Below are positions 45,130 to 56,600 of a stretch of DNA of 64,000 nucleotides, piece after piece. The stretch comes from an uncultured virus (IMG/VR IMGVR_UViG_3300025034_000006). Taxonomy: Duplodnaviria; Heunggongvirae; Uroviricota; Caudoviricetes. The notes below the pieces were generated by a model. It did not search any database. It was not told where the DNA came from and worked only from the letters and a program-made list of their open reading frames with translations. The position numbers and the translations under genes are program-made. Positions within the stretch are counted from its first letter, which is position 1; every line of letters starts with the position of its first letter. Location of the stretch: the IMG/VR virus record IMGVR_UViG_3300025034_000006; one strand, given 5' to 3'.

Positions 45130-45136
45130 TAACGCT

Positions 45137-45276: not shown

Positions 45277-45278
45277 TT

Positions 45279-45402
45279 TGTGATCGGGCCGGCGGCACCA
45301 GATAGGTTTAAGGCGAGTGGACTCCCGTCGAACGGAGACGACAGACCCGGATAAAAACCGTGTATGGGTGTTGCTAGTGCTTTGGCCGCCGGCCTGATCA
45401 CA
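45279..45402 (+). ncRNA. Structured RNA closed by 18-bp stem
   Basis: TGTGATCGGGCCGGCGGC/GCCGCCGGCCTGATCACA. Confidence 0.5.
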
Positions 45403-45408
45403 GATGTT

Positions 45409-45494
45409 TCACTTGCAACAAGGGAGGCGGGCACCGTCGGGAAACCGGGACGGATGATTCGCGAACTTTAGTCCGCTCTCCTTGTTGCGAGTGA
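45409..45494 (+). ncRNA. Long hairpin RNA
   Basis: TCACTTGCAACAAGG...GCGGGC pairs with GTCCGC...CCTTGTTGCGAGTGA. Confidence 0.45.
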
Positions 45495-45682
45495 TGTTCG
45501 AGTTTTTCTCACTTCCCTGTCCGCAGGGGTGACCCGGTAGGTAACCAAGGGTGGTTCGAATATCCTCGCATTTAGTTCCTGTGGGTTCCATGGAGCCCCT
45601 TGAATCCTCAAGCAGGTGACAGAGAGTTAAAGGAGCCGCCCTGCTCCGAAACCAGATAAAATGGGTGAGTGCAATTTTTTAG

Positions 45683-45711
45683 TTGACATTCGAATCGGAT
45701 GTCGTTACACT
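45683..45711 (+). promoter_or_regulatory. Promoter of tRNA operon 1
   Basis: TTGACA-17-TACACT with CGAATCG in spacer. Confidence 0.8.
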
Positions 45712-45763
45712 TCGATCATCAAGACCGGGATGTTCCGGCCAAACAGGATTTCAGAGTTCAACC

Positions 45764-45853
45764 ATGTTCAACGTAGTCGCCATGAATAACCCAGCAGCAC
45801 CGGCCATTATGGTCCCGGTCGCGATGGCGTGCGAACAGATGGTTGGTGGCTAG
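45764..45853 (+). CDS. Leader peptide 1 MFNVVAMNNPAAPAIMVPVAMACEQMVGG
   Basis: Between promoter and terminator; 22 of 28 post-start codons are N/V/A/M/P/I. Confidence 0.8.
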   Translation: MFNVVAMNNPAAPAIMVPVAMACEQMVGG

Positions 45854-45882
45854 GCCACTTCACTCTCCAAGCAGTTATCTCG

Positions 45883-45919
45883 ATCGGGGGCCATGGCAAC
45901 ATGGCCCCCGATTTCGTTT
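45883..45919 (+). terminator. Attenuator terminator 1
   Basis: Perfect 13-bp stem ATCGGGGGCCATG-GCAA-CATGGCCCCCGAT followed by TTCGTTT. Confidence 0.85.
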
Positions 45920-45995
45920 CAGGGTCTAGCTCAGTTGGAAGAGCGTCCGGTTTGGGACCGGAAGGCCGTAGGTTCGAGCCCTACGATCCTGACCA
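45920..45995 (+). tRNA. tRNA-Pro(TGG)
   Basis: Canonical cloverleaf, CCA. Confidence 0.95.
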
Positions 45996-46007
45996 TTTCA
46001 AGAGTAT

Positions 46008-46086
46008 CAGGCGGTAGGGGAGTCTGGCCGTCCCTACCTCCCTCGGACGGAGGGGATCGCAGGTTCGAATCCTGCCCGCCTGACCA
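46008..46086 (+). tRNA. tRNA-Pro(CGG)
   Basis: Cloverleaf, loop CTCGGAC, CCA. Confidence 0.9.
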
Positions 46087-46092
46087 AGTTAT

Positions 46093-46163
46093 AGCAGAGC
46101 CTCAGTGGGGGCGGGGCCTCATAAGCCTTTGACCCGGTGGCGCACATCCACCCTTTGCTACCA
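46093..46163 (+). tRNA. tRNA-Met(CAT), atypical (short D arm, T loop CGCACAT)
   Basis: Acceptor AGCAGAG/CTTTGCT, loop CTCATAA, CCA. Confidence 0.7.
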
Positions 46164-46301
46164 GATAGGTGACCCAGCCACCTCCTCGTCGATCGCCGAG
46201 ATCGTCAGGTGCCCCGCACGATCAGCGGAGCTAGTAAAACCACTGGGACGTTTCGAACCGTCTCGTTGAGACGCGTCTAAGCCGGAGTAATTAACCGGCG
46301 T

Positions 46302-46412
46302 ATGCGGGGCGGTTGTAGAACGAGGAGGACGCCGGTTCGAATCCGGCCACCGGGGCAAGGCTCCGGTGTAGCTCAGGTGGTTAGAGCGCCTTGTTGATTT
46401 CGTCCCCGGCAT
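46302..46412 (+). ncRNA. YrlA-like Y RNA / circularly permuted tRNA-like element
   Basis: Order is T arm, looped acceptor hairpin (CACCGG/CCGGTG), D arm; closed by AACGAGG/CCTTGTT. Confidence 0.7.
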
Positions 46413-46442
46413 CCGTCAAATCGGATGGGACAAAGAGTTTGT

Positions 46443-46518
46443 TGGTGATTAGCTCATTCAGGAGAGCGCTGGTGTCACATACCAGAGGCGGCAGGGGCAG
46501 AGCCTGCATCACCAACCA
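46443..46518 (+). tRNA. tRNA-Val(CAC)
   Basis: Cloverleaf, atypical T loop GGCAGAG, CCA. Confidence 0.85.
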
Positions 46519-46519
46519 T

Positions 46520-46597
46520 CCACGGATAGCTCAGTTGGTAGAGCGGCCGACCGATAATCGGCGTCTTGCGCAGGTTCGAGCCCTGCTCTGTGGACCA
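46520..46597 (+). tRNA. tRNA-Ile(GAT)
   Basis: Cloverleaf, loop CCGATAA, CCA. Confidence 0.9.
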
Positions 46598-46744
46598 GTT
46601 ACCAAACCCTTGACGGGGTGAGGACGCAGGGGTTAGTCTCCCTGTAAGAGCGAGACTAATAGACCGAACATTCGGCCGGCGGATGAGTTGACGACTCGCA
46701 CTCCCGGTTGATCAGTAGGTTGAGGTCTCGCTACCAGTTTATGT

Positions 46745-46828
46745 TCGGTGGTGACAGAGTGGTAATGTGCCCGGCTGTTAACCGGTGTCCCCGAAAGGGC
46801 GGAGGTTCGACCCCTCCCCGCCGAGCCA
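46745..46828 (+). tRNA. tRNA-Asn(GTT) with long variable arm
   Basis: U1-A72, G73, loop CTGTTAA, CCA. Confidence 0.85.
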
Positions 46829-46843
46829 ATTTAGGAGAAGTGA

Positions 46844-47152
46844 GTGGAACGCTACAACATCAGCTACGATCGACCCGGACGAAAACTCCGGGAGACCGAT
46901 CCGGGCCCGTCTGATACCACATGGAAAGGTGTCCGGGAACATTGGTCGAGATCGCATGATGGGCAGTTTCTCTCGGACTATCAGGAAGGTGTCGCACTGG
47001 CCCAAGCGGATTTGACCGCTGATAACCGGGACAATCGCGACGCGCTCTTGGCGGTAGAGGTAGCAGATCGCGGACTTGGCTGGGAAGCCCAGCGCGATGG
47101 TTACCTCGACACGATCGGCGAAGGAAAATACGTCGCTCGTTTGGATTTTTAA
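46844..47152 (+). CDS. Hypothetical protein within tRNA operon
   Basis: AGGAG SD plus GTG. Confidence 0.55.
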   Translation: MERYNISYDRPGRKLRETDPGPSDTTWKGVREHWSRSHDGQFLSDYQEGVALAQADLTADNRDNRDALLAVEVADRGLGWEAQRDGYLDTIGEGKYVARLDF

Positions 47153-47541
47153 TGACAGAGATGAACGTCTTATGTCTGACTTGCCAAACGGAATTGACTG
47201 GTAAACAGACCAAGTTTTGCTCACGAGCATGTCAGAACAAAAACGGTAATGTGAGGAATCAACTCTACGAAAAACAACAAGCCCGAGGCTTGAAAAGAAA
47301 AATGGAGTTGATAAACCTTCGAGGAGGTGGTTGTGAAGAATGTGGTTACAGAGATAATCTAGCTGCTTTGTGTTTTCATCATACAGATGAGACTTCAAAA
47401 GGTTTCGAGCTTACTTTAAGAGAGCTTTCGAATCACAAAGAAGAAACTATAATGAAAGAGTTCGCCAAATGTGTTGTGTTATGTCATAATTGCCATATCG
47501 AACACCACAATCCGAGCCTGAATGGCTGGTATAAGAAATAA
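47152..47541 (+). CDS. HNH endonuclease, probable homing endonuclease in the tRNA cluster
   Basis: CEECGY...LCFHH...LCHNCHIEHH; AT-rich. Confidence 0.85.
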   Translation: MTEMNVLCLTCQTELTGKQTKFCSRACQNKNGNVRNQLYEKQQARGLKRKMELINLRGGGCEECGYRDNLAALCFHHTDETSKGFELTLRELSNHKEETIMKEFAKCVVLCHNCHIEHHNPSLNGWYKK

Positions 47542-47543
47542 TT

Positions 47544-47617
47544 GATCCTGTAGCTTAGTGGTCTAAAGCTCTCTCCTCATAAGAGATGAAACGTAGGTTC
47601 AAATCCTACCGGGATTA
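47544..47617 (+). tRNA. tRNA-Met/Ile2(CAT), no encoded CCA
   Basis: Cloverleaf, loop CTCATAA. Confidence 0.85.
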
Positions 47618-47618
47618 C

Positions 47619-47693
47619 GCTTCGTTAGCTCACCAGTAGAGCGCTGCCGTGACAAGGCAGAGGTAGGAGGGGCAGCACCTTCACGAAGCACCA
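47619..47693 (+). tRNA. tRNA-Val(GAC)
   Basis: Cloverleaf, T loop GGCAGCA, CCA. Confidence 0.85.
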
Positions 47694-47699
47694 CAGTTT

Positions 47700-47777
47700 G
47701 GGGTCGCATGTTCCAAGGGAAGGCGACGGACCCTTGCAAGGTCTGTGAGGTGGGTTCGATTCCCACCGGCTCCACCA
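47700..47777 (+). tRNA. tRNA-Ala(TGC)
   Basis: G3-U70 pair, loop CTTGCAA, CCA. Confidence 0.9.
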
Positions 47778-47839
47778 TACTTGACACGGCCAAAATTTGG
47801 CCTATTGTCGGCCGAAGCAATCATGCTAAAGGAACCGAC

Positions 47840-48016
47840 ATGAACACTTTGTATAGCTGGAAAATCCGCCGGGCTGGTGCTGGTATGACCATCACTCATT
47901 CGTGCGGTAAGATCGTCAACGTCGCTGACATCGAAGCCAAGGGTGACCGGATCATTGCCACCACGGCGACTGGGGCTGAGTTCGAATTGGCGACGCCGCC
48001 CCTCCTCGCAGGGTAA
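47840..48016 (+). CDS. Small hypothetical protein
   Basis: TTGACA at 47781, AAGGA SD, ATG. Confidence 0.55.
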   Translation: MNTLYSWKIRRAGAGMTITHSCGKIVNVADIEAKGDRIIATTATGAEFELATPPLLAG

Positions 48017-48045
48017 ATTAAAAATACGCCAGTGTGATTTTTGTG

Positions 48046-48074
48046 TTGACATAACGAATCGAATCACATATAGT
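48046..48074 (+). promoter_or_regulatory. Promoter of tRNA operon 2
   Basis: TTGACA-17-TATAGT with tandem CGAATC. Confidence 0.85.
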
Positions 48075-48127
48075 TCGGCTTCAACAACGGACACAGTGTC
48101 CACCAAACAGGATTTTGAGTAACTGCT

Positions 48128-48190
48128 ATGACCTACGGATTTACCAAACGAGATCGCCGGAGAGGCGAAGAACGAGGTTTCACCTCGTAA
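48128..48190 (+). CDS. Leader peptide 2 MTYGFTKRDRRRGEERGFTS
   Basis: 14 of 19 post-start codons are K/R/D/G/E/F; 5' UTR shares CCAAACAGGATTT..GAGT with leader 1. Confidence 0.8.
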   Translation: MTYGFTKRDRRRGEERGFTS

Positions 48191-48226
48191 CCCGGTAGTG
48201 CGTAGAGCTATCGGTGTCGTTTTGAC

Positions 48227-48302
48227 GGACCTTTAGCTCAGTAGGTAGAGCAGGCGGCTCTTAACCGCAAGGTGGTAGGTTCAAGCCCTACAAGGTCCAC
48301 CA
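48227..48302 (+). tRNA. tRNA-Lys(CTT)
   Basis: Canonical cloverleaf, CCA; lies upstream of terminator 2. Confidence 0.95.
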
Positions 48303-48320
48303 AAACGACATCGATTTTTG

Positions 48321-48358
48321 AACGCCCTACCGGTCGCCCGGTGGGGCGTTTTTCGTTT
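48321..48358 (+). terminator. Attenuator terminator 2
   Basis: 13-bp stem AACGCCCTACCGG-TCGC-CCGGTGGGGCGTT followed by TTTCGTTT. Confidence 0.85.
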
Positions 48359-48377
48359 CCCGGCTGGTTCTTGGCAT

Positions 48378-48453
48378 GGACCGGTAGCTCAGTAGGCAGA
48401 GCGCGGGACTTTTAATCTTGAGGTCGTGGGTTCGAACCCCACTCGGTCTACCA
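48378..48453 (+). tRNA. tRNA-Lys(TTT)
   Basis: Canonical cloverleaf, CCA. Confidence 0.95.
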
Positions 48454-48479
48454 AGAATATCAATAGTTTACGACTAGAT

Positions 48480-48554
48480 GCGGGTGTAGCTCAGTGGTAG
48501 AGCGCCTGCTTGCCAAGTAGAAGGTCGCGGGTTCGATCCCCGCTACCCGCTCCA
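48480..48554 (+). tRNA. tRNA-Gly(GCC)
   Basis: Canonical cloverleaf, CCA. Confidence 0.95.
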
Positions 48555-48582
48555 GTCGAAGTTGTTAGTGATGAGTGATGAT

Positions 48583-48658
48583 GCAGCCGTAGCTCAGCGG
48601 TAGAGCGGGAGGCTTCCACCCTCCGTCAGCGCGGGTTCGATCCCCGCCGGCCGCTCCA
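48583..48658 (+). tRNA. tRNA-Gly(TCC)
   Basis: Cloverleaf, loop CTTCCAC, CCA. Confidence 0.9.
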
Positions 48659-48670
48659 TCACTTATTATT

Positions 48671-48745
48671 GGCCGTGAAGCCCAACGGTTGGGCAGCGGA
48701 TTGTCTATCCGAAGGTTGCGGGTTCGAATCCCGTCACGGTCGCCA
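48671..48745 (+). tRNA. tRNA-Asp(GTC)
   Basis: Cloverleaf, G73, CCA. Confidence 0.9.
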
Positions 48746-48748
48746 GTT

Positions 48749-48858
48749 TGCAGTATCGTCTAATCCCCGACAACGGGGACAGAGTGTCATGACCTCTGGG
48801 ACTAGGATGGCCGGGCGAAGAACCGGAAGATGTCGGTTCGATCCCGGCTGCTGCGCCA
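48749..48858 (+). ncRNA. tRNA-like RNA with two hairpins inserted in the D loop and an 8-nt anticodon-position loop
   Basis: GCAGTA/TGCTGC acceptor, GTCGG-TTCGATC-CCGGC T arm, CCA. Confidence 0.6.
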
Positions 48859-48916
48859 GTTAACCGGTCAGATATGACCTACAAGCCCGTCTTGTGTGCC
48901 ATATATGACCATATGA

Positions 48917-48990
48917 GGCCCTATCCTCTATGGGTAAGAGTCCACCCTCTCACGGTGAGAAACCGGGTTCGAGCCCCGGTAGGGCCTCCA
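48917..48990 (+). tRNA. tRNA-Glu(CTC)
   Basis: Loop CTCTCAC, CCA; near-duplicate of 49095-49168. Confidence 0.9.
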
Positions 48991-49009
48991 TGAATTAGTT
49001 TACGAGTTC

Positions 49010-49086
49010 GGTCTGGAAGCTCAACTGGAAGAGCAACCGCCTACGAAGCGGAAGGTTGATGGGTTCGACTCCCTCGCAGACCACCA
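49010..49086 (+). tRNA. tRNA-Arg(ACG)
   Basis: Loop CTACGAA, CCA. Confidence 0.9.
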
Positions 49087-49094
49087 ATTTATAT

Positions 49095-49168
49095 GGCCCT
49101 ATCCTCTATGGGTAAGAGTCCGCCCTTTCACGGCGAGAAACCGGGTTCGAGCCCCGGTAGGGCTACCA
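49095..49168 (+). tRNA. tRNA-Glu(TTC)
   Basis: Loop CTTTCAC, CCA. Confidence 0.9.
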
Positions 49169-49179
49169 GATAAGTCAGT

Positions 49180-49255
49180 GCCGCTTTAGCTCAACTGGAG
49201 AGAGCGCGGGCGTCCGAAGCCCAAGACCGGGGTTCGAGTCCCTGAGGCGGCACCA
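49180..49255 (+). tRNA. tRNA-Arg(CCG)
   Basis: Loop GTCCGAA, CCA. Confidence 0.9.
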
Positions 49256-49261
49256 GAGATT

Positions 49262-49336
49262 GCAGGAATAGCTCAGTGGTAGAGCGGTAGGTTGAAAACC
49301 TACGCGTCGGTGGTTCGAACCCATCTTCTTGCACCA
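49262..49336 (+). tRNA. tRNA-Phe(GAA)
   Basis: Canonical cloverleaf, CCA. Confidence 0.95.
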
Positions 49337-49343
49337 GATCACC

Positions 49344-49413
49344 GCCCCCGCCGAGGCGGGCCATGAGCCTTCTAAGCTCTAAGGCGTCGGTTCGACTCCG
49401 GCCGGGGGCTCCA
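49344..49413 (+). tRNA. tRNA-Arg(TCT), short D arm
   Basis: Loop CTTCTAA, T arm, CCA; 70 nt. Confidence 0.75.
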
Positions 49414-49453
49414 CGCCCAGATCAAAAAAAAACACCGTCAGCAAAAATAAGTG

Positions 49454-49482
49454 TTGACTCCTTTAACTTCCTTCCATATACT
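49454..49482 (+). promoter_or_regulatory. Promoter of tRNA operon 3
   Basis: TTGACT-17-TATACT; ATG begins 8 nt downstream, so the mRNA is probably leaderless. Confidence 0.85.
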
Positions 49483-49489
49483 TCGCAGC

Positions 49490-49573
49490 ATGTTCACACA
49501 GACCGCCTTGCAAAGCCTTACGGGCTCCTTACTATGCTGGCATAGCCAGTATAGTTCCCTGTCACCCTTCTAA
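49490..49573 (+). CDS. Leader peptide 3 MFTQTALQSLTGSLLCWHSQYSSLSPF
   Basis: 21 of 26 post-start codons are T/Q/L/S/C/W/H/Y. Confidence 0.8.
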   Translation: MFTQTALQSLTGSLLCWHSQYSSLSPF

Positions 49574-49608
49574 GGGAGCAGCCCTGACGCGCTGCTCTCT
49601 TTCCAAGA

Positions 49609-49705
49609 GGAGCGGTGGCAGAGTCTGGGTTATTGCGGCGGTCTCGAAAACCGTTGGACCATCGAGAGATGTGTTCCGTGGGTTCAAATCCCACTCGCTC
49701 CTCCA
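49609..49705 (+). tRNA. tRNA-Ser(CGA)
   Basis: Long variable arm, loop CTCGAAA, CCA; lies upstream of terminator 3. Confidence 0.9.
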
Positions 49706-49715
49706 GCATTTTCAG

Positions 49716-49754
49716 AGCGTCAGAGCCCACCGGGTTCTGGCGCTATTTTCGTTT
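49716..49754 (+). terminator. Attenuator terminator 3
   Basis: 13-bp stem AGCGTCAGAGCCC-ACC-GGGTTCTGGCGCT followed by ATTTTCGTTT. Confidence 0.8.
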
Positions 49755-49767
49755 CATCACAAGTTTC

Positions 49768-49860
49768 GGGTGATCTTCCCCCTGCCGGCCTGTAACCCCG
49801 GTGCCGTTTCAGAACGTGGGGGACGGATGGCGAGAGGTTCGAGTCCTCGGTCACCCACCA
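49768..49860 (+). tRNA. tRNA-Tyr(GTA), non-canonical (8/4 stems, no D arm)
   Basis: GGGTGATC/GGTCACCC acceptor, loop CTGTAAC, GAGG-TTCGAGT-CCTC, ACCA. Confidence 0.65.
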
Positions 49861-49904
49861 TTTTAGGAGAATACCTGTGAATACAGGAGCTTAATAAGAG
49901 TTAC

Positions 49905-49988
49905 GTGAGCGTGGCTTCATAGGGAATGGTATACCTTGCCGGCTCAGACCCGGTAGCTTTGGGAGTTCGAGTCTCCCCGCTCACACCA
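49905..49988 (+). tRNA. tRNA-Leu(CAG), atypical
   Basis: Loop CTCAGAC; short variable loop; extra bases before D arm. Confidence 0.8.
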
Positions 49989-49996
49989 ACTTAAAT

Positions 49997-50079
49997 CCGC
50001 GATTGGCGAAATTGGTAAACGCAGCGTCTTGAGAGGGCGTGGCCTAGGCTTCCCGGTTCAAGTCCGGGATCGCGGACCA
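49997..50079 (+). tRNA. tRNA-Leu(GAG)
   Basis: Loop TTGAGAG, variable arm, CCA. Confidence 0.9.
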
Positions 50080-50093
50080 ACACAACAAGCTAC

Positions 50094-50178
50094 GGGTGCG
50101 TGGCGACAGGGGAATTGGTAGACTCACCGGACTTAAAATTCGGCCGCTTTGTGGGTTCGAGTCCCACCGCACCCACCA
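50094..50178 (+). tRNA. tRNA-Leu(TAA), atypical
   Basis: Loop CTTAAAA; short variable loop; extra bases before D arm. Confidence 0.8.
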
Positions 50179-50193
50179 GATATGAAGTTCAAT

Positions 50194-50268
50194 GCCGGTT
50201 TAGCTCAGTGGTAGCAGCAGCGCCTTTGTAACGCGAAGACGAGGGTTCGATTCCCTCATCCGGCTCCA
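50194..50268 (+). tRNA. tRNA-Thr(TGT)
   Basis: Loop TTTGTAA, CCA. Confidence 0.85.
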
Positions 50269-50290
50269 GATAATGTTCCACGGTTTAGGT

Positions 50291-50364
50291 GTGGCCGAGG
50301 CAGAGATGGATGATGCGCCGGCTTGTGATGCCGGAGATGGCGGGTTCGAATCCCGCCGGTCACC
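50291..50364 (+). tRNA. tRNA-His(GTG)
   Basis: Loop TTGTGAT, C73, no encoded CCA. Confidence 0.85.
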
Positions 50365-50382
50365 CCTAAGCCGTGGAACAAT

Positions 50383-50457
50383 TGCCCGATCGACTAATTG
50401 GCAAGTCGCTCGACTCTGAATCCTGAAATGTAGGTTCGACCCCTGCTCGGGCATCCA
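50383..50457 (+). tRNA. tRNA-Gln(CTG)
   Basis: U1-A72, loop CTCTGAA, CCA. Confidence 0.85.
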
Positions 50458-50472
50458 ATTATGGAGTTAGTT

Positions 50473-50721
50473 ATGGAAGTTCTTGACGAACAAACTGACC
50501 AACCTGATGCCCCTTCGGCTAATGGTAAGTCAGCGCCCTTTGAAGGCGAAGACGTTGGTTCGATCCCAACAGGGGCATCCAAAAATTTAGCTCCGATCCA
50601 TCGCTGCACTGTGCGGCAGATCGGGGAGTTCACGTTTGTTCTGGTTGAACCTGATGGTTCCCTGTTCAACGTGGTCGAAGAGATCGATCGTCAGTTTATG
50701 GCTGGAGGTTGTAACAAGTAA
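50473..50721 (+). CDS. Hypothetical protein whose frame spans tRNA-Gln(TTG)
   Basis: GGAG SD plus ATG; frame is open through the tRNA. Confidence 0.45.
   Translation: MEVLDEQTDQPDAPSANGKSAPFEGEDVGSIPTGASKNLAPIHRCTVRQIGEFTFVLVEPDGSLFNVVEEIDRQFMAGGCNK
50508..50581 (+). tRNA. tRNA-Gln(TTG)
   Basis: U1-A72, loop CTTTGAA, CCA. Confidence 0.9.
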
Positions 50722-50722
50722 C

Positions 50723-50798
50723 GCCGTTTGAGCAAGCTGGGACTGCACTCCCTTGGTAGGGGAGAGAAGAGTCGGTTCGATTCCGACAAACGGCTCCA
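50723..50798 (+). tRNA. tRNA-Thr(GGT)
   Basis: Loop TTGGTAG, CCA. Confidence 0.85.
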
Positions 50799-50804
50799 AT
50801 TAGA

Positions 50805-50892
50805 GGAGGGTGCCGAGGTCGGCTCCTCAACTGGCTTGCTAAGCCGGGGTGACCCTTCGGGGTCAGGGGTTCGATGCCTCCACCTTCCTCCA
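50805..50892 (+). tRNA. tRNA-Ser(GCT), 8/4 type
   Basis: 8-bp acceptor, 4-bp T stem, long variable arm, CCA. Confidence 0.8.
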
Positions 50893-50900
50893 CAACATAT

Positions 50901-50988
50901 GGAAAGCGCGTGGGTCGGCTCCCTAATCAGCTTGGAACGCTGTCGTGACCCTTCGGGGTCAGGGGTTCGATGCCCCCGCTTTCCTCCA
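50901..50988 (+). tRNA. tRNA-Ser(GGA), 8/4 type
   Basis: 8-bp acceptor, 4-bp T stem, same variable arm as the previous tRNA. Confidence 0.8.
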
Positions 50989-51026
50989 CATACGTTGAAG
51001 CATATATCCACCCGATAATATATGCT

Positions 51027-51069
51027 TTGACATATCATGTGAAATCGCTTAGTTCACATGATATGTCAA
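51027..51069. repeat. Perfect 17-bp inverted repeat starting with TTGACA on both strands
   Basis: TTGACATATCATGTGAA-9nt-TTCACATGATATGTCAA. Confidence 0.9.
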
Positions 51070-51073
51070 TCAA

Positions 51074-51159
51074 GCCGCCTTGGCCGAGTCTGGTAAGGCA
51101 CCCGGTTGCAACCCGGAGGTTCCGAAAGGACGCAGGTTCAAATCCTGTGGGCGGCTCCA
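51074..51159 (+). tRNA. tRNA-Cys(GCA) with long variable arm
   Basis: Loop TTGCAAC, U73, CCA. Confidence 0.85.
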
Positions 51160-51173
51160 GATTATGAGGTGAA

Positions 51174-51509
51174 ATGAACGTAGACGATTTTTATGCTGAG
51201 TGCGCTGTGATCCTTGGAGTTCCCCACGAGGGCGAAGAGTTCACCCACTACAAGCGGACCCGCTGGAACAACCGGCGGCCCGGCCGAGGACGTTTTCCCG
51301 GTGCTGGTTTGATCCGCGTGTTCGGCGATGTCGTCCACATCAATATCCGTTTCCCAGTGGTCGCCCGGCAGACGATCACCGGGCTCCCCGAAGCGTTAGA
51401 TTATCTTCGCGGTCGGGTTGGCACTATGGGAGTGTCGTCTAATGGTAAGACAGCGGATTCCAAACCCGCTGACGTGGGTTCGATTCCTACCTCTCCCGCC
51501 ACACCGTAA
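51174..51509 (+). CDS. Hypothetical protein whose 3' end spans tRNA-Trp
   Basis: GAGGTG SD plus ATG; RTRWNNRRPG.GRFPG.G segment. Confidence 0.65.
   Translation: MNVDDFYAECAVILGVPHEGEEFTHYKRTRWNNRRPGRGRFPGAGLIRVFGDVVHINIRFPVVARQTITGLPEALDYLRGRVGTMGVSSNGKTADSKPADVGSIPTSPATP
51428..51501 (+). tRNA. tRNA-Trp(CCA)
   Basis: Loop TTCCAAA, G73, CCA. Confidence 0.9.
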
Positions 51510-51577
51510 TTTTCGATTGACAATCGTTGGCTTTTATCTTAACGATGTGTCTCTCAAAAATGTAGGTGGAATAACTA

Positions 51578-52156
51578 ATGGAATTTTCTGCTCGCCAGCA
51601 AACATTCGGCATCAGCCAGCTACAGCGCTTGCTTGGTAAGAGTTCGCAGGACGTTGAGCGTTTCGCCTCTTACAGTGGATGGCCCGGCTTGACCGGACAG
51701 ATGGTGACCGTGGATGTCTCCGGCGCTCTCAACATGATGGTTCACTCCACAGCGGCCGACTTCGGTGTCGAACGCAACGTGGTTGGTTCTTGGCTTCCGG
51801 GTCTGCGGACCGGGGCTCTCATGGTTCTGGGGCGGAATGTGGACAACTGGACCGTCAACGCCACTCCTGAGGAACAGAACCGATTCTTCGCCAGCCTCTT
51901 CGGCGAGCAATCGAAGGTCAATGATTTCGTTGCCACCACCCTTGGCTGTCACTCGGGCTCGGCCAAGCGCCAGATGCGCTTCCACTCTGCGACCGACGTA
52001 GAGCTTCTGTCGGAAGCAGAGTTTCTGGCCGGATACAGTTCACGATCGCCGCGCTTCGTGATCGATTCGCGAGCCCTCGCTGACCGGCTGTCGGCCATTT
52101 CGCAACCGCTCTTTGTTGCCAGCGTCAAGGTGACTTCGCCCTCGCCCTATCTCTGA
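51578..52156 (+). CDS. Hypothetical protein
   Basis: Own TTGACA promoter; 192 aa. Confidence 0.6.
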   Translation: MEFSARQQTFGISQLQRLLGKSSQDVERFASYSGWPGLTGQMVTVDVSGALNMMVHSTAADFGVERNVVGSWLPGLRTGALMVLGRNVDNWTVNATPEEQNRFFASLFGEQSKVNDFVATTLGCHSGSAKRQMRFHSATDVELLSEAEFLAGYSSRSPRFVIDSRALADRLSAISQPLFVASVKVTSPSPYL

Positions 52157-52216
52157 TTTTCGACGCGCTCTCAATTTTCAGTTGACAGTGATGTGCGAAT
52201 CGCTTATTCTTCTCCT

Positions 52217-52608
52217 CGTCAAGTGCTTCGGCATGAAGACTACGGTCGTAGAAGGCCATCTAAGTCAAGCGGAGACCCGAGGGCAGAACTCGGCACCTCC
52301 ACCAAAGACCCCTGCGGCCGCCTGAAACGCGGTCAGGGTGACGATCCGCCTAGGCTCTGGACGACGGTCCTTTGTAAGGCAGCGGGGTTCTTTGATGGGG
52401 GTGAATTTAGGATCGATCCGTAAGGCCGATGTGGAGAAGCGCCCCGTTTAGATACCGCCCGTATGCGGATCAAATTCATCAACTGTCAACGACAATGATG
52501 TGGTCGTCGCCAGCGAAGAGATTCGTCTCGCCGCGTAAGCGACAAAATCCCTAGGGCCTCACACCTCTAGGTGGCGCGTGGTCCCGAGCGTAGCAACAGT
52601 TTCGGGAC
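52217..52608 (+). ncRNA. ssrA: Two-piece circularly permuted tmRNA
   Basis: Acceptor piece ends CACCTCC-ACCA at 52304; spacer hairpin; coding piece starts GGGGGTG at 52397 (G3-U70); tag frame 52485-52538 VNDNDVVVASEEIRLAA*. Confidence 0.9.
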
Positions 52609-52609
52609 A

Positions 52610-52801
52610 ACATCTTTTTCGCCAACGTCTCGTCCTACTGTTCTAGGCGGTCGAAAGCGAGGGTCACGGCTGAGCGGCCCGGCTGATATTCTGGTTCGAA
52701 TCCGGAACAGGGGGATGTAAACCTCCTAGCCATGGTGGGAAGGCGCGGGCGTCTGGGTTCGAATCCCAGCCCAAACGTCGGGGCGTTGGCGAAAGAGATG
52801 T
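52610..52801 (+). ncRNA. Y-RNA-like RNA with two T-arm hairpins
   Basis: ~23-bp closing stem; GTCGAAAG motif; two GGTTCGAATCC loops; D-arm-like TAGCC..GG..AGGC. Confidence 0.6.
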
Positions 52802-52857
52802 AAAATAGTTATTGACGAACCGGACGAATCATCCTATTTGTTTGTCATCGAGTTTAT

Positions 52858-52962
52858 CGGGGAAGTGGCCTTAACCAGTGGCCGAAGCACGAGAAGAGAT
52901 CGCCGGGTGCCCGGAGGATTGTTGAGGATCGTGTGGACGGGTTCGTAGCCCGGCCCCCGCCA
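52858..52962 (+). ncRNA. tRNA-like RNA ending in CCA
   Basis: Promoter TTGACG at 52812; CGGGG/CCCCG ends; CGGG-TTCGTAG-CCCG T-like arm. Confidence 0.45.
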
Positions 52963-53017
52963 GTTACCGCCGGGAGATGAAGGTCTGTCTCCAACTCGCT
53001 GTGAAGCTCCCGGCATT

Positions 53018-53049
53018 GGCCCGGCCGTCGCAAGATGGCCGGGCCTTTC
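53018..53049 (+). terminator. Intrinsic terminator
   Basis: GGCCCGGCCGTC-GCAA-GATGGCCGGGCC-TTT. Confidence 0.75.
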
Positions 53050-53177
53050 GATTCATGCGGAAATTATTTTCGTCCGTAGCTGTCCACAACCGTCCAGTGT
53101 GTCCAAGGTGCGACATTCTTGCTTGACATGACGGCAATTCTAGCTTAACCATGGCGCTCTTCTGGAGATAGCGCTAC

Positions 53178-53624
53178 ATGACGACCATAGCTTACCGCTC
53201 GGGCCTGCTGGCTGCCGATACATTGATCTCCTACACCAGTATCACCAACGGCTCCCGCGAGAAGATCGCCAAGTGTGGTGGGTTCACCGTTGCCCTCGCT
53301 GGTCCGGCATGGCTTCGACGACCTCTGGAAGCTTGGTGTGCTGGTGGTTGCCCTGAGGATGACGTTCCTCAAGTTCTGCTCGATCACGGTAACGACTTCT
53401 CGGCCCTGATCATCGACAACACCACCGGCGATCTCTTCGAGTTCGATAACGGTTATCTACTCCCCATCTTTGCCGATTACACCGCAATCGGTTCTGGCGC
53501 TCTACTGGCGCTAGGTGCCATGGCTCATGGAGCCTCCGCTGAGGAAGCCGTCGAAGCGGCATCCAAGCACGATAAGAACACAGGCGGCCCGGTGACCAGC
53601 CTGTCCTTTTCCCTCACAGCATAA
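53178..53624 (+). CDS. Ntn-hydrolase / HslV-like peptidase subunit
   Basis: N-terminal TTIAY, LAAD, AIGSG, D..TGG. Confidence 0.75.
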   Translation: MTTIAYRSGLLAADTLISYTSITNGSREKIAKCGGFTVALAGPAWLRRPLEAWCAGGCPEDDVPQVLLDHGNDFSALIIDNTTGDLFEFDNGYLLPIFADYTAIGSGALLALGAMAHGASAEEAVEAASKHDKNTGGPVTSLSFSLTA

Positions 53625-53632
53625 GGTCACCA

Positions 53633-56600
53633 ATGACCCCCTACACCCAACTCATTCACGACCTGATGGGTCGTGCATCTGGAGCCGTCACCGTCGAAGC
53701 AGCCGACGGGAGCTATATCACCAGCGATGACCTTCTCGAAGTCGGTGCGTTCGCTTCCCATGCCGATGACCCGTGGATTGATCTCGTCACCGACGAAGGC
53801 TTTGCCGTGGGCGTCTTCGTAGCTGGTAACCCGGAAGTCGTCGTTCCTCAGCCGTCCTTCGATGTCGATGGCGGAATGATCTACATGATCGACGGTGATC
53901 CGATCCCCGGCATGAAGCAGGGCCTGCATATGTGCCCTCTCAGCGTCTTCATGCATAAGGGCAAGCCTGACTTCGACGGGTTGAACTGGTATCTCCCGGA
54001 AGACCTCGACCTGAAAACGCCGGGATCGGATCGCCAGATCACCCTCATGACTGGTCGTCGCCGCGACGAAGGCCAAGGCAAGTGGAAAGAGATTTCCAGC
54101 ACCTTCGGCCAGTTCGAAACTGTGCTGCAAGATCACAAGGAAGGGCAGAAAGACGGTCCCTGCTTCTTACAAGGGAAGTCGGCCAACGGCGCTCGCAAAG
54201 CTGTTGCCATGATCGAGAACCACATCCTTGGGGTCGATCTCGATTCGGGCGCTCCCTTGACGGATGTGATGGAGACCATCCAGAAGTATGGTCTGGAAGC
54301 CGTCATCTACACGACTCACAGCCACCTCAAGGACACCAGTGTCATCAAGCGCGACCACTTCATCAAGTGGAACGAGGAAGGTGAGGTTGATGAAGAGGCT
54401 GTTCGCGATTACCTGATCAAGGTCAAGGGCACTTTGCCTCAGATCGTTGACGATCTGGAGATCATCGACGACGCCCACCACACCGAAGAGGGTGTGGTCA
54501 TCCTCGTCAAGCACAAGCCGATGCCCAAGTTCCGGGCGGTGTTCCCGCTCAAGGAAGCTTTCGTCTTCGCCAAGCGTGGTGGTTCCCAGAAGGATGCCAT
54601 CAACGAGTGGAAGGAGCGCTATGCCGGCTTCTGCACCGAACTGGGCTTGTTCTTCGACGAGAAGTGCGTCGATCCCGCACGCTTGTTCTATCTGCCTCGC
54701 CACCCATCCAAGAGCAAAAATCACGGCTCTTGGTTGGTAGTGGGTGAACCCCTCGATCTCGACAAGTTCGATCGTGTGAAAATGAAGCGCGGGCGCACCG
54801 GTAAGCGCAGTGCTGTCTCCAGTAATGCGTTCACGGACGCGGCCGGCGGCGCTGGCTATGACGACGAAGACGACGCCGATCGCTACATCACCTCTTGCGG
54901 TTTCAACCTCAAGGGATGGTCGATCAAATATGCCAAGCGCTTCGAAGTCCAGACCATGATCGAAGAAGTGGTTGGTGGTGACTTCGTTCGCGAATCCCGT
55001 GGTAACAAGCCGGGTGTCCATGTCGAATGTCCTTTCGAAGCTGAGCATTCAAGCTTTGGTGGTGGCGGCACCTTCGTGGTCAATGCGTCCGACAATCTGG
55101 ACGACGGATACGATGGTGGTTTCACCTTCACCTGCGTTCACAATTCGTGCGCCGGCCGGGATCGTCTCGATTATCTCAAGGAGATGATCGAACAGGAACT
55201 GATCACGGTTGCTGATCTCAAGAACAAGGACTTCCTGTTCGAACTGGAAGAGGACGAAGAGGAAGAAGATGTTCCGGCTCAGCGTGAGAAGCCGAAGAAG
55301 CACACCCGTCAGACAGATGCGGAACACCGGGAAGAGCATGAGGATCAGATCAACGATGATGACTTCGGTGATGACGAAGACTCGATGCTCAAGGCGTTCA
55401 ACCGGCGCTACGCGGTGATCCGCACCAGTGGTGGGGTCCGCATTCTTGTGGAGCCCCGGACGCCGGAAGATGATGTCGTTTTCGAAAGCCAGAACGACGT
55501 GGCGCTCTACGAGAAGAACCGCATCATCTGGGTGACAGAAGGTAAGCAAACCCGCAAGGTCGAAGCATTCAAGCAGTGGCTTGAGTGGGAGAAGCGTCGC
55601 ACCTATCGGAACGTCGTGTTCGCGCCGGGCGAGAAGACCCCGAAGGATGTTTACAATCTGTTTCAGGGTTGGCCTTTTGAAGCTGTCCCCACCTCGTGGG
55701 AAGAGGTTCTGGACAACAAGGACAAGCCGGTCGCGGGTGACTGGTCGATGCTGCGTGGTCACATCTACGAGAACATCTGCGAATCGAACGATGCCTATTT
55801 CGAGTGGCTGATGACATGGATCGCCATGCTTTTCCAGAAGCCTCAGGCAAAGCCCGGTTCAACGGTGGTTATCACCGGTAAGAAGGGGACTGGTAAGTCC
55901 ACGCTGTTCGATTACATCAACCAGCTTCTCGGTCGGTGTGGGATCACTGTGTCCCAGCGTAAGCAGATCGTCGGCCAGTTCAACGGTCACCTTGCCACCA
56001 CCTTGCTGATGGTCTGTGAAGAAGCCTTCTGGGCGGCCGATCCGCAAGCCGAAGGTGTCCTCAAGGACATGATCACCAACAAGTCGGTGCTGATCGAAAA
56101 GAAGGGCTACGATCCGATCCAGTCGCGGAATTACACGCGGCTGGCGCTGATCTCGAACAACGAATGGGTTGTTCCGGCGTCTCTCAAGGACGAACGTCGC
56201 TTCTTCGTGCTGCGATGCTCCGACGCGGTGCAGGGCAATATCCAATTCTTCGAGGACATGCGCGAGCAGATGGAAAAGAAGGGTGGTCTCGAAGCCATGC
56301 TCTATGATCTCCTCCACTGGGAACCTGTGGGCGGAACCTTCTCGACCTTGTTCACGCCGCCGGCAACTGCATATCTCCAGCAGCAGCAGATCGAGTCGCT
56401 GTCTGGTGTGCAGAAGTTCATGCTCGAACTGGTCAAGTCCGGGGTCTATGAAACCCACGATGACAAGGTGACGCCGATCGAACTGAACACCGACACCGAG
56501 ACGACTGTCTACGCTGTGGACATGCGTGCGGCTGTGGAGGATTACGTTCGGTTCCAGTTCTCCTCGGACAAGGCCAAGACCAGCTACGACGACATCTCGG

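What the first reader, a model, noticed from the sequence alone, without database searches (positions are those of the whole stretch)
49454..49754. Attenuator 3: leaderless sensor ORF sampling five Leu, four Ser and three Thr codons plus Cys, Trp, His, Tyr and Gln
Seen: the ATG starts 8 nt after the -10 box with no SD. The ORF uses TTG, CTT, TTA, CTA, CTG; AGC, AGT, TCC, TCA; ACA, ACC, ACG; CAG, CAA; TGC, TGG, CAT, TAT. This diversity contrasts with the GC3-biased coding genes. GCCCTGACGC (49581-49590) pairs 9 of 10 with the terminator arm GCGTCAGAGC and overlaps a competing hairpin GGGAGCAGC/GCTGCTCTC next to the stop. As in operon 2, the first tRNA, Ser(CGA), precedes the terminator and its codon TCG is absent from the leader.
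Basis: partly seen in the sequence, partly recalled or inferred. Interest (0 to 1): 0.85.

Follow-up and report, generated by a model that had tools for sequence, protein, structure and literature searches.

The report
Leaderless sensor ORF gating phage tRNAs
A phage puts a tiny test gene, written almost entirely in the eight amino acids whose tRNA genes lie behind it, in front of a transcription stop signal; this probably lets it make those tRNAs when ribosomes run short of them, a control known for amino-acid synthesis genes but not described for tRNA genes.

Summary
The sequence features are real, and the core reading holds up by comparison; nothing was tested experimentally. The window comes from a CbK-like phage of sphingomonads. 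Its tRNA array has three promoter-led units, and their tRNAs divide the 20 amino acids among them.

Each unit starts with a short ORF enriched in its own unit's amino acids:
- Unit A: 22/28 residues.
- Unit B: 14/19 residues.
- Unit C, this finding: 21/26 residues.
- The 3x3 chi-square gives p = 9e-14.

Across 11 distinct relatives of unit C:
- The promoter hexamers, the 7-9 nt distance to the ATG, and the reading frame (22-27 codons, in-frame indels) are kept.
- The composition is kept: 240/276 residues in set, against 34-38% in the other frames.
- The stop codon always abuts hairpin H3.
- The H3 5' arm and loop mimic the terminator's 3' arm and can pair with its 5' arm across tRNA-Ser.

Mechanism and polarity are inferred, and folding models are inconclusive for this unit. 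They are clear for the parallel unit B.

Two side claims fail. The leader's GC3 equals that of the genes (0.67). The absence of TCG is neither significant nor conserved.

This scan noted the same element before on near-identical DNA, and similar devices in other phages. Five searches found no paper describing it. Rating: new variant of a known kind, high interest.

The parts
49454..49482 (+). sigma-70-type promoter: -35 TTGACT (49454-49459), 17-nt spacer, -10 TATACT (49477-49482); A/T-rich stretch upstream
   Evidence: scores it 10 of 12. In 11 of 11 relatives the -35 is TTGAC[AT] and the spacer is 17 nt of varying sequence. The -10 is TATACT in 9 of 11, TATAAG in one and TATCAT in one.
49490..49573 (+). 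Leaderless sensor ORF: 27 codons plus TAA (MFTQTALQSLTGSLLCWHSQYSSLSPF). Inferred transcription start at about 49487-49490.
   Evidence: The frame is open in 11 of 11 relatives at 22-27 codons. Residues in set {S,Y,L,T,H,Q,C,W}: 240 of 276, against 88/258 and 97/252 in the other two frames.
49514..49526 (+). Small hairpin H1 inside the ORF (AGCCU/GGGCU)
   Evidence: An equivalent hairpin with other stem sequences is predicted in 10 of the 11 ORF folds. It is missing in L030, which has a 15-nt in-frame deletion here.
49531..49555 (+). Hairpin H2 inside the ORF (codons 14-22), 11 pairs, loop AUA
   Evidence: It is present in all 11 relatives with compensatory stem changes, read by eye. The ORF RNA folds better than shuffles in all 11 (at most 10 of 200 shuffles reach it).
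49574..49599 (+). Hairpin H3, starting at the base after the stop codon: 9 pairs, 8-nt loop CCUGACGC (49583-49590). The 5' arm plus loop is the proposed antiterminator strand; the 3' arm is its local competitor.
   Evidence: In RNAalifold, 5 of the 9 pairs have double-sided compensatory changes. The stop abuts H3 in 11 of 11. The loop heptamer CTGACGC is invariant in 11 of 11.
49609..49705 (+). tRNA-Ser(CGA), lying between the leader and the terminator
   Evidence: ARAGORN; Rfam tRNA model 50.1 bits. A Ser tRNA holds this place in all relatives scanned. Its anticodon is CGA, except TGA in L015.
49716..49755 (+). Intrinsic terminator: stem 49716-49728 / 49732-49744, U-rich tail ATTTTCGTTTC. The 5' arm GCGTCAG (49717-49723) is complementary to the H3 loop.
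   Evidence: One search finds 13 pairs. In one search the distal stem pairs covary while GCGTCAG is nearly invariant. The same tail motif follows the terminators of units A and B.
49770..51501 (+). The tRNA genes behind the terminator: a Tyr-like tRNA (uncalled), Leu(CAG), Leu(GAG), Leu(TAA)-like, Thr(TGT), His, Gln x2, Thr(GGT), Ser(GCT), Ser(GGA), Cys and Trp. No consensus + strand promoter is found between 49754 and 52182.
   Evidence: Tyr and Leu(TAA) are assigned by eye and by position homology to L001 and L015.

Best explanation
This is a ribosome-mediated (leader-peptide type) transcription attenuator that gates the third block of the phage's tRNA genes.

Proposed sequence of events:
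1. A strong sigma-70-type promoter starts the RNA at or within about 3 nt of the AUG at 49490, so 70S ribosomes can translate a 27-codon leaderless ORF.
2. The ORF is built from codons for Ser, Tyr, Leu, Thr, His, Gln, Cys and Trp. These are exactly the amino acids whose tRNAs are encoded in this block, so the ORF reports how fast those codons are being read.
3. The stop codon touches hairpin H3.
4. The 5' arm and loop of H3 look like the 3' arm of the terminator 143 nt downstream. They can pair with the terminator's 5' arm across the folded tRNA-Ser, which would prevent the terminator hairpin.

Inferred logic, by analogy with trp-type attenuators and with unit B of the same phage:
- When the sensor codons are read quickly, ribosomes keep arriving at the stop. 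There they melt or cover this strand, the terminator forms, and only tRNA-Ser(CGA) is made.
- When ribosomes are held up at hungry codons, the strand stays free, catches the terminator's 5' arm, and RNA polymerase reads on into the 13 tRNA genes behind.

Shown by sequence comparison: the promoter, the ORF and its composition, the hairpins, the complementarity and the terminator.

Inferred: translation of the ORF, the start site, the polarity of the switch, and its effect on termination.
For: (1) ORF composition in the window.
- 21/26 residues are in set. The binomial p is 4e-5 against a codon-count null and 3e-7 against a proteome null.
- 0.0003 of 20,000 dinucleotide shuffles reach this count.

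(2) Same rule in the window's other two units.
- The leader-by-set matrix is A 22/4/2, B 0/14/5, C 2/3/21; chi-square p = 9e-14.
- All 20 amino acids occur in the leader of their own unit. Random peptides do this with P = 6.5e-5.
- The diagonal sum of 57/73 was reached by 0 of 200,000 random sets.
- The other ORFs in the leader intervals (two each in units A and B, none in C) show no such match.

(3) Conservation.
- 20 leader ORFs in 9 records all have their largest count in their own set.
- Among 11 distinct unit-C sequences, the frame is open in 11/11 with in-frame indels, and 240/276 residues are in set. The other frames give 34% and 38% and carry stops in several sequences.
- Differences between window, L001 and L002 in the ORF are mostly amino-acid changes that stay inside the set.

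(4) Leaderless start.
- The promoter hexamers are conserved over a diverged spacer, and the -10 to ATG distance is 7 nt in 10/11 and 9 nt in 1/11.
- The first ~20 nt of the ORF are unpaired in the folds.
- Leaderless mRNAs are common and well translated in an alphaproteobacterium: 375 in Caulobacter (PMC4117421, passages read).

(5) Switch anatomy.
- The stop abuts H3 in 11/11, and H3 and the terminator are supported by covariation.
- The leader-to-trailer duplex is -16 to -28 kcal/mol. It is reached by at most 5 of 200 shuffles in 8 of 11 sequences.
- The loop heptamer and the terminator heptamer are complementary over 7 bp in 9 of 11.

(6) Parallel case, unit B.
- The segment from the stop codon to tRNA-Lys pairs with the trailer and the terminator's 5' arm at -33 to -42 kcal/mol. 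No shuffle of 200 reaches this in 8 of 8 genomes, and the sequences differ between genomes.
- Masking a ribosome at the last codons lowers the antiterminator probability from 0.78 to 0.19.

(7) A distant CbK-like record (L063) has an ORF rich in R, N, V, Q, I and Y. It sits before a terminator and before Val, Ile, Gln, Asn and Arg tRNAs.
Against: - There are no experimental data. The start site, translation and termination are all unverified. No RNA run was usable.
- The stop codon and the terminator arm are 143 nt apart with a whole tRNA between them. A ribosome that terminates promptly would be gone before the polymerase reaches the terminator, so the model needs ribosome occupancy, a lag or a pause that I cannot show.
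- H3 forms locally and earlier, and it sequesters half of the proposed antiterminator strand.
- Nested-structure folding gives zero probability for the 7-bp loop pairing at every ribosome position, and the terminator forms at 0.97-0.98 throughout. That run cannot model the pseudoknot.
- With the tRNA constrained (9 of the 11 sequences run), the pairing probability is erratic. It is about 0 in L019, L029 and L030. The terminator was mis-parsed in L017. In the window the probability does not fall when the ribosome is at the stop.
- The long-range pairing shows no covariation. In L030 an A>T change in the terminator arm is compensated inside the terminator but not in the H3 loop. In L029 the last pair is lost.
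- The leader-to-trailer duplex is not better than shuffles at the 5% level in 3 of 11: L001 36/200, L019 32/200, L029 15/200.
- No terminator is predicted between unit B and this promoter. Read-through transcripts would therefore carry the ORF internally without an SD.
Confidence: 0.6

Rival explanations
1. The ORF is a real translated sensor, but the polarity or the read-out differs. Three versions: (a) completed translation, not stalling, opens H3 and promotes read-through, so tRNA output follows translational capacity. (b) H3 with its invariant loop is a nut/put-like signal that makes the polymerase terminator-resistant unless a ribosome covers it. (c) Translation controls folding or RNase P processing of tRNA-Ser, because the ORF's end can pair with the tRNA's first bases.
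For: - The H3 loop is invariant in 11/11 even where the terminator arm changes, in L029 and L030. This suggests a partner other than, or in addition to, the terminator.
- RNAalifold pairs the last 6 nt before the stop with the 5' acceptor strand of tRNA-Ser in all 11. The changes are one-sided only.
- The folding model for this unit gives no clear polarity.
- The 143-nt gap fits a persistent modification of the polymerase better than a local hairpin choice (inference).
Against: - No Rfam family of any kind matches 49483-49608.
- The leader-terminator complementarity beats shuffles in 8 of 11.
- Unit B clearly uses a leader-terminator helix that a ribosome at the stop would block.
- No candidate antitermination protein was looked for.
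Confidence: 0.22
2. The leader is a non-coding structured RNA, a 5' leader and processing signal for pre-tRNA-Ser. The open frame is a by-product of conserved sequence. The terminator simply ends a monocistronic tRNA-Ser transcript or is a leaky stop.
For: - H1, H2 and H3 are conserved with compensatory changes.
- The first 23 nt from the ATG are identical in 7 of the 11 sequences, third codon positions included. L015 differs at one base, and L017, L019 and L020 diverge.
- A 27-codon frame is open in about 31% of shuffles.
- There is no SD.
Against: - The frame is open in 11/11 despite indels, all of them in frame, while the other frames acquire stops.
- The in-set composition (87% against 34-38%) is not explained by RNA structure.
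- Two unrelated leader sequences in the same array follow the same rule with their own tRNA sets.
Confidence: 0.08
3. The ORF encodes a small protein with a function of its own, and its composition reflects that function.
For: The ORF is conserved in length and position.
Against: - No Pfam or PHROG family matches at E up to 1.
- The residue order is poorly conserved while the residue class is kept.
- Length varies from 22 to 27 residues.
- Half of the ORF is a covarying hairpin.
- The match to the downstream tRNA set recurs in three unrelated ORFs.
Confidence: 0.04

Closest known systems
Multivalent leader-peptide transcription attenuators of enterobacterial amino-acid operons (thrL for Thr/Ile, ilvL for Leu/Val/Ile; trpL and hisL as the single-amino-acid models). 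Recalled knowledge, no paper read here.
   Same: A promoter-proximal short ORF is enriched in the codons whose supply is to be sensed. An intrinsic terminator lies before the controlled genes. A strand next to or inside the ORF mimics the terminator's 3' arm.
   Different: - The controlled genes are tRNA genes, not biosynthetic enzymes.
- Eight amino acids are sampled, mostly once to six times each, instead of runs of one to three.
- The mRNA is apparently leaderless.
- A complete tRNA gene lies between the leader and the terminator.
- The local competitor of the antiterminator strand (the H3 3' arm) lies downstream of it rather than in the ORF.
- The element belongs to a phage.
pheST (pheM leader) attenuator of E. 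coli, which ties a Phe-rich leader peptide to phenylalanyl-tRNA synthetase genes. Recalled; only the pheL paper PMC3082878 appeared in a search listing.
   Same: Leader-peptide attenuation is applied to a component of the translation apparatus for the sensed amino acid.
   Different: It controls a synthetase, senses one amino acid, has an SD-led ORF, has no tRNA inside the leader, and is a cellular gene.
whiB7 uORF attenuator of mycobacteria (PMC10274678, abstract read)
   Same: Stalling in a uORF leads to antitermination. According to the abstract, knock-down of tRNAs, tRNA synthetases and amino-acid synthesis genes activates it, and the uORF's coding sequence decides what is sensed.
   Different: Its output is a transcription factor. 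The uORF is enriched for alanine, not matched to a set of downstream tRNA genes. It is not a phage element.
Units A (45683-45915) and B (48046-48360) of the same window, and leader-ORF devices before tRNA arrays in other phages noted earlier in this scan (AI notes)
   Same: Same logic. Unit B also has its first tRNA between the leader and the terminator, and its stop codon abuts the antiterminator strand.
   Different: - Units A and B have 5' UTRs of about 50 nt and unrelated leader sequences.
- Unit A has no tRNA before its terminator.
- Unit B's long-range helix is far stronger and covaries.

Membership tests
Leader-peptide (ribosome-mediated) transcription attenuator | A short ORF lies close behind the promoter and is translated | tested here: inconclusive
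   The ORF is present and conserved, 11/11 open with in-frame indels. Translation and the start site could not be tested, because no RNA data were usable.
Leader-peptide (ribosome-mediated) transcription attenuator | The ORF is enriched in codons of the amino acids relevant to the controlled genes | tested here: met
   21/26 in the window and 240/276 over the 11 relatives. Shuffle p is at most 3e-4. The 3x3 chi-square gives p = 9e-14.
Leader-peptide (ribosome-mediated) transcription attenuator | An intrinsic terminator lies between the ORF and the controlled genes | tested here: met
   A 13-bp stem plus U-rich tail at 49716-49755; the stem covaries. One tRNA lies before it and 13 lie behind it. 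Termination activity was not tested.
Leader-peptide (ribosome-mediated) transcription attenuator | An alternative pairing sequesters the terminator's 5' arm (antiterminator) | tested here: inconclusive
   The complementarity is present in 11/11 (7 bp in 9, 6 bp in 1, 5+1 bp in 1). The extended duplex beats shuffles in 8 of 11. There is no covariation, and one uncompensated change in L030.
Leader-peptide (ribosome-mediated) transcription attenuator | The ribosome's position on the ORF decides between the two structures | tested here: inconclusive
   The stop abuts the antiterminator strand in 11/11. Ribosome-mask folding gives no consistent result for this unit. It gives a clear result for unit B.
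Leader-peptide (ribosome-mediated) transcription attenuator | The controlled genes are amino-acid biosynthesis or aminoacyl-tRNA synthetase genes (classical members) | tested here: not met
   The genes behind the terminator are tRNA genes.
T-box riboswitch (tRNA-sensing leader RNA) | Match to the T-box leader model (specifier loop, T-box antiterminator bulge) | tested here: not met
   No Rfam match to any cis-regulatory family in 49400-50000 at E up to 10, apart from chance hits on the tRNA itself. Nothing was found in 44000-53200 at E up to 1.
Processive antitermination RNA (lambdoid nut/boxB, HK022 put) | A conserved promoter-proximal hairpin acts on the polymerase, alone or with a phage protein | not tested
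   H3 has an invariant loop, and no Rfam family matches it. No protein partner was sought. Activity cannot be tested with these tools.

The most novel reading that the evidence does not exclude
The three leaders together form a distributed read-out of the host's charged-tRNA pools. The 20 amino acids are split among three tRNA operons, and each operon is switched on by slow reading of its own amino acids' codons. The phage could then replace exactly the tRNAs that are depleted or cut during infection, for example by host shut-off or by anticodon-nuclease defence systems. The first tRNA of an operon would serve as the scaffold or delay line that brings the sensor strand to the terminator. This would be demand-driven control of tRNA gene transcription by the ribosome itself, a regulatory principle not described for tRNA genes in cells or viruses.
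Probability: 0.4. Interest if true: 0.9.

Novelty: new variant of a known kind. Interest (0 to 1): 0.8.

Why it matters
Phage tRNA genes are usually discussed as passive codon-usage supplements or as spares against tRNA-targeting defence. How their expression is controlled is hardly known. A leader ORF written in the codons of the tRNAs behind it would mean the phage measures tRNA supply directly at the ribosome and sets tRNA transcription accordingly.

- It extends leader-peptide attenuation from amino-acid metabolism to the tRNA pool itself.
- It gives a directly testable link between tRNA depletion and phage counter-measures. This phage also carries RtcB, a tmRNA, and Y-RNA-like and GOLLD-like RNAs.
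- It offers compact natural sensors for the availability of defined groups of aminoacyl-tRNAs.
- The split of all 20 amino acids over three separately sensed operons is a striking piece of genome organisation.

Tried and rejected
- Leader-tRNA helix. The full-length minimum-energy fold pairs the ORF's 5' part with the 5' half of tRNA-Ser. ORF-to-tRNA duplex energies are no better than shuffles in any of the 11 sequences (z from -1.4 to +1.0), so I dropped it as a model artefact.
- Ribosome-mask folding of unit C.
  - Unconstrained: probability 0 for the 7-bp loop pairing at every position. The method cannot model the pseudoknot.
  - With the tRNA acceptor stem enforced, on 9 of 11 sequences: erratic, the L017 terminator was mis-parsed, and no consistent dependence on position.
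- RNA evidence.
  - No RNA holder was listed. Four wastewater 'RNA-Seq' runs hold 12-26% of the sampled words.
  - Laid on 43000-55000, they gave only short low-depth contigs, flagged 'probably DNA', mostly cross-matching tRNAs. No starts or ends could be read.
- Widening the family.
  - The pattern for the stop, H3 and loop gave 19 viral loci. Of these, 8 were not in contigs already held; two of those 8 share their core with a third, and all are unrelated coding-region matches.
  - An earlier pattern gave 7 loci, of which 2 (L026, L028) were unrelated.
  - The metagenome scan with the HslV-like protein gave 6 loci and no new variant of the array.
  - tblastn of that protein against the phage collection found only the two Erythrobacter phages.
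- My own earlier thought that H2's 3' arm or the tRNA T-arm competes with the terminator: only 5-bp matches seen by eye and not conserved. Not pursued.
- Rfam: no family for the leader.
- Pfam and PHROGs: nothing for the three leader peptides.
- Coevolution test. In L020, Thr(TGT) and Arg(TCT) sit in unit A, and its leader A starts M-T-T. However, other leader A peptides also contain T and R without those tRNAs, so this says nothing.
- Script problems. One search timed out and was rerun in smaller pieces. One search used wrong start coordinates for leaders A and B and was corrected.
Full report
**What the window is**

Bases 44.3-52.6 kb hold a dense tRNA array. ARAGORN tRNAs and Rfam finds two more. 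The array is followed by a permuted alpha-type tmRNA at 52178-52609.

The nearest named relatives are Erythrobacter phages vB_EliS-L02 (78.6% identity over 66% of a 1-kb query) and XM05. A near-identical IMG/VR record, G001, is held. The phage belongs to the CbK-like siphoviruses of sphingomonads (PMC9127768, passages read).

**The observation**

- TTGACT-17-TATACT lies at 49454-49482.
- The ATG is at 49490, the 8th base after the -10. Nothing but promoter lies upstream.
- The ORF has 27 codons and ends with TAA at 49571-49573, with the listed codons.
- Hairpin H3 lies at 49574-49599, directly after the stop.
- tRNA-Ser(CGA) lies at 49609-49705.
- A 13-bp terminator at 49716-49744 has the tail ATTTTCGTTT.
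- The loop-plus-stem segment 49581-49590 is complementary to 49717-49726 in 9 of 10 positions.

Two statements do not hold.
- The leader's GC3 is 0.67, the same as the genes at 0.66-0.67. Only the Leu codons are unusually diverse: 5 kinds in 5, P = 0.029. Ser gives 0.66 and Thr 0.29.
- The missing TCG is neither significant nor conserved. TCG is 26% of Ser codons, so six Ser codons would lack it about 16% of the time. L030 has TCG. L015 has Ser(TGA) as its first tRNA and TCA in its leader.

**The key result: three units, three matched leaders**

Consensus promoters at 45683, 48046 and 49454 head three tRNA blocks.
- Unit A: Pro, Pro, Ile, Asn, Met, Val, Ala.
- Unit B: Lys, Lys, Gly, Gly, Asp, Glu, Arg, Glu, Arg, Phe, Arg.
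- Unit C: Ser, a Tyr-like tRNA, Leu x3, Thr x2, His, Gln x2, Ser x2, Cys, Trp.

Val(GAC), Tyr and Leu(TAA) were read by eye and by position homology. The three sets divide the 20 amino acids without overlap.

Each block begins with a short ORF.
- A, 45764-45853: MFNVVAMNNPAAPAIMVPVAMACEQMVGG.
- B, 48128-48190: MTYGFTKRDRRRGEERGFTS.
- C: the finding.

Counting residues after the start by set (A/B/C) gives 22/4/2, 0/14/5 and 2/3/21.
- The chi-square gives p = 9e-14.
- All 20 amino acids occur in the leader of their own unit. Random peptides with the window's composition do this with P = 6.5e-5.
- A diagonal of 57/73 was reached by none of 200,000 random sets.
- The other ORFs of 10 or more codons in the three leader intervals (two in A, two in B, none in C) show no such match.

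**Relatives**

A 20-nt pattern, a second pattern and the neighbouring HslV-like protein brought in related arrays. More sequence came from two complete records.

In 20 leader ORFs from 9 records, the largest count always falls in the ORF's own set. Three further leaders from L036 and L037, which I counted by eye, give 22/29 (A), 17/19 (B) and 15/18 (B). I saw no leader-A ORF upstream of tRNA-Pro in L037.

For unit C there are 11 distinct sequences.
- The frame is open in 11/11 at 22-27 codons, and all length differences are in frame.
- In-set residues are 240/276 (87%), against 88/258 and 97/252 in the other frames. Those frames carry stops in several sequences.
- All eight amino acids occur in each of the four leaders tested, and dinucleotide shuffles reach the observed count in at most 0.0003.
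- The -35 and -10 hexamers are kept while the 17-nt spacer diverges. The ATG follows the -10 by 7 nt in 10 sequences and by 9 nt in one.

This is what a leaderless start predicts. Leaderless mRNAs are common and efficiently translated in Caulobacter, another alphaproteobacterium (PMC4117421, passages read).

**RNA structure**

The ORF RNA is itself structured.
- The 5' ~20 nt are unpaired.
- A small hairpin H1 lies at 49514-49526.
- An 11-bp hairpin H2 lies at 49531-49555.
- Both recur with different stem sequences. All 11 ORF RNAs fold better than shuffles, with at most 10 of 200 shuffles reaching them.

So the sequence is under double constraint, coding class and pairing. This explains the many amino-acid changes that stay inside the set.

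RNAalifold supports H3, with 5 of 9 pairs showing double-sided compensatory changes. It also supports the terminator, whose distal pairs covary while GCGTCAG is nearly invariant. It pairs the last 6 nt before the stop with the first bases of tRNA-Ser, with one-sided changes only.

**The switch**

The stop codon abuts H3 in 11/11. The H3 5' arm and loop resemble the terminator's 3' arm.
- The segment from the stop to the tRNA forms a duplex with the trailer and the terminator's 5' arm of -16 to -28 kcal/mol. At most 5 of 200 shuffles reach this in 8 of 11 sequences. The exceptions are L001, L019 and L029.
- Its core, CUGACGC with GCGUCAG, is 7 bp in 9 of 11.

It never covaries. In L030 an A>T change in the terminator arm is compensated within the terminator but not in the loop, and in L029 the last pair is lost. 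The pairing is therefore plausible but unproven.

Because the core lies in a hairpin loop, the structure would be a pseudoknot or would need strand invasion into H3. My nested-fold simulations cannot decide this.

**Unit B as the guide**

Unit B also has its first tRNA, Lys(CTT), before its terminator, and its stop codon abuts the next hairpin.
- The whole segment from the stop to the tRNA pairs with the trailer and the terminator's 5' arm at -33 to -42 kcal/mol, against -13 to -19 for shuffles. No shuffle of 200 reaches the observed energy in 8 of 8 genomes, and the sequences differ between genomes, so the helix covaries.
- At the stage where the terminator's 5' arm has emerged, the antiterminator probability is 0.77-0.78 with no ribosome or with a ribosome at codons 2-18. 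It falls to 0.57, 0.23 and 0.19 for the last two codons and the stop.

That is the trp-type logic: a ribosome that reaches the stop favours termination, and a ribosome held upstream favours read-through. I carry this polarity over to unit C by analogy.

The first tRNA may act as a scaffold that brings the leader and trailer together, or as a delay that gives a slowly initiating ribosome time to act. Both ideas are inference.

**Weak points**

There is no mapping of RNA ends, no footprint and no termination assay. The 143-nt distance raises a timing problem. H3 is a strong local competitor. No terminator separates unit B from this promoter, so read-through transcripts would carry an untranslatable copy of the ORF.

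**Known systems and novelty**

The device works like the multivalent leader-peptide attenuators (thr, ilv; recalled), but it differs in several ways.
- It controls tRNA genes.
- It samples eight amino acids.
- It is leaderless.
- It has a tRNA inside the leader.

It also shares its sensing logic with the whiB7 uORF, which responds to knock-down of tRNAs and synthetases (PMC10274678, abstract).

Five literature searches gave no paper on leader-peptide control of tRNA genes. The L02 paper holds no occurrence of 'terminator' and its one 'promoter' is in the reference list. The Lacusarx paper mentions only module-level predicted promoters and terminators and has no occurrence of 'attenuat'. Subscription journals and supplements were not searched.

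Earlier notes of this scan describe the same element on near-identical DNA (e1-5842914) and similar devices in other phage groups. These are AI notes, not independent evidence.

One case I checked myself is the distant record L063. Its ORF 9849-9944 (MMTYRNNVRQIRVRQFNLAG...) precedes a 14-bp terminator and Val, Ile, Gln, Asn and Arg tRNAs. An ORF-internal hairpin there overlaps a mimic of the terminator's 3' arm.

**Verdict**

The ORF is a genuine, selected sensor of the unit's own amino acids; my confidence in that part alone is about 0.9. That it acts by transcription attenuation at 49716-49755 with the stated polarity is the best-supported mechanism, at about 0.6. It is a new variant of a known kind and of high interest.

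Noticed in passing
window 45683-45915: Unit A attenuator. It runs: promoter, ~50-nt UTR, a 29-codon ORF rich in P, V, I, A, N and M (22/28), a hairpin holding the stop codon, a terminator with a TTTCGTTTC tail, then tRNA-Pro. The ORF segment ATGGTCCC can pair with the terminator's 5' arm (by eye). It is conserved in L001, L015, L017, L020 and L036.
   Followed up: partly
window 48046-48360: Unit B attenuator. A 20-codon ORF rich in K, R, D, E, G and F (14/19) comes first, then tRNA-Lys(CTT) enclosed by a ~30-bp covarying leader-trailer helix that includes the terminator's 5' arm. The helix is -33 to -42 kcal/mol, and 0 of 200 shuffles reach it in 8 of 8 genomes.
   Followed up: yes
window 44318-44764: GOLLD-like RNA (RF02032, 122.1 bits, below the gathering score of 150, E 1.6e-32) with tRNA-Lys(CTT) 44346-44421 inside it.
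   Followed up: no
window 46306-46409: A Y RNA-like (YrlA) match inside tRNA unit A (37.5 bits against a gathering score of 69, E 1.9e-5). In the two named relatives the gene after the array is annotated as an RtcB-type RNA ligase.
   Followed up: no
window 52178-52609: Permuted alpha-type tmRNA (75.9 bits) with a promoter-like site at 52182-52210. Relatives carry tag peptides ending in ...RLAA.
   Followed up: no
L063 9813-10240 (record G004): A distant CbK-like jumbo-phage record has an ORF at 9849-9944 whose first 16 residues after the start are mostly R, N, V, Q, I and Y. A 14-bp terminator (9974-10005) follows, then a Tyr-like tRNA and Val, Ile, Ile, Val, Gln, Gln, Asn, Arg, Arg tRNAs. 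An ORF-internal hairpin overlaps a mimic of the terminator's 3' arm. No consensus promoter was called there.
   Followed up: partly
window 49770-49862; 50094-50178: Two tRNA-like genes that the standard callers miss or misname. The first has a Tyr anticodon loop (CTGTAA), an odd D arm and a long extra arm. The second has a Leu(TAA) loop and scores 29.3 bits in Rfam; relaxed ARAGORN calls it Gly(ACC).
   Followed up: partly
window 51027-51069: A 43-nt near-perfect palindrome just before tRNA-Cys. It overlaps a promoter-like site on the minus strand (51043-51015).
   Followed up: no
L006, L007, L008 and L002 (record ends): Three IMG/VR contigs begin, and the XM05 GenBank record ends, 67-153 nt upstream of the leader ATG. 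One contig carries the stretch at both ends (L006 and L009). This could be a genome end or a recurrent assembly break at the A-run and tRNA repeat.
   Followed up: no
window 47781-48017: A further consensus promoter (TTGACA-16-TATTGT) lies directly after tRNA-Ala. It drives an SD-led 58-codon ORF between units A and B, of unknown function.
   Followed up: no
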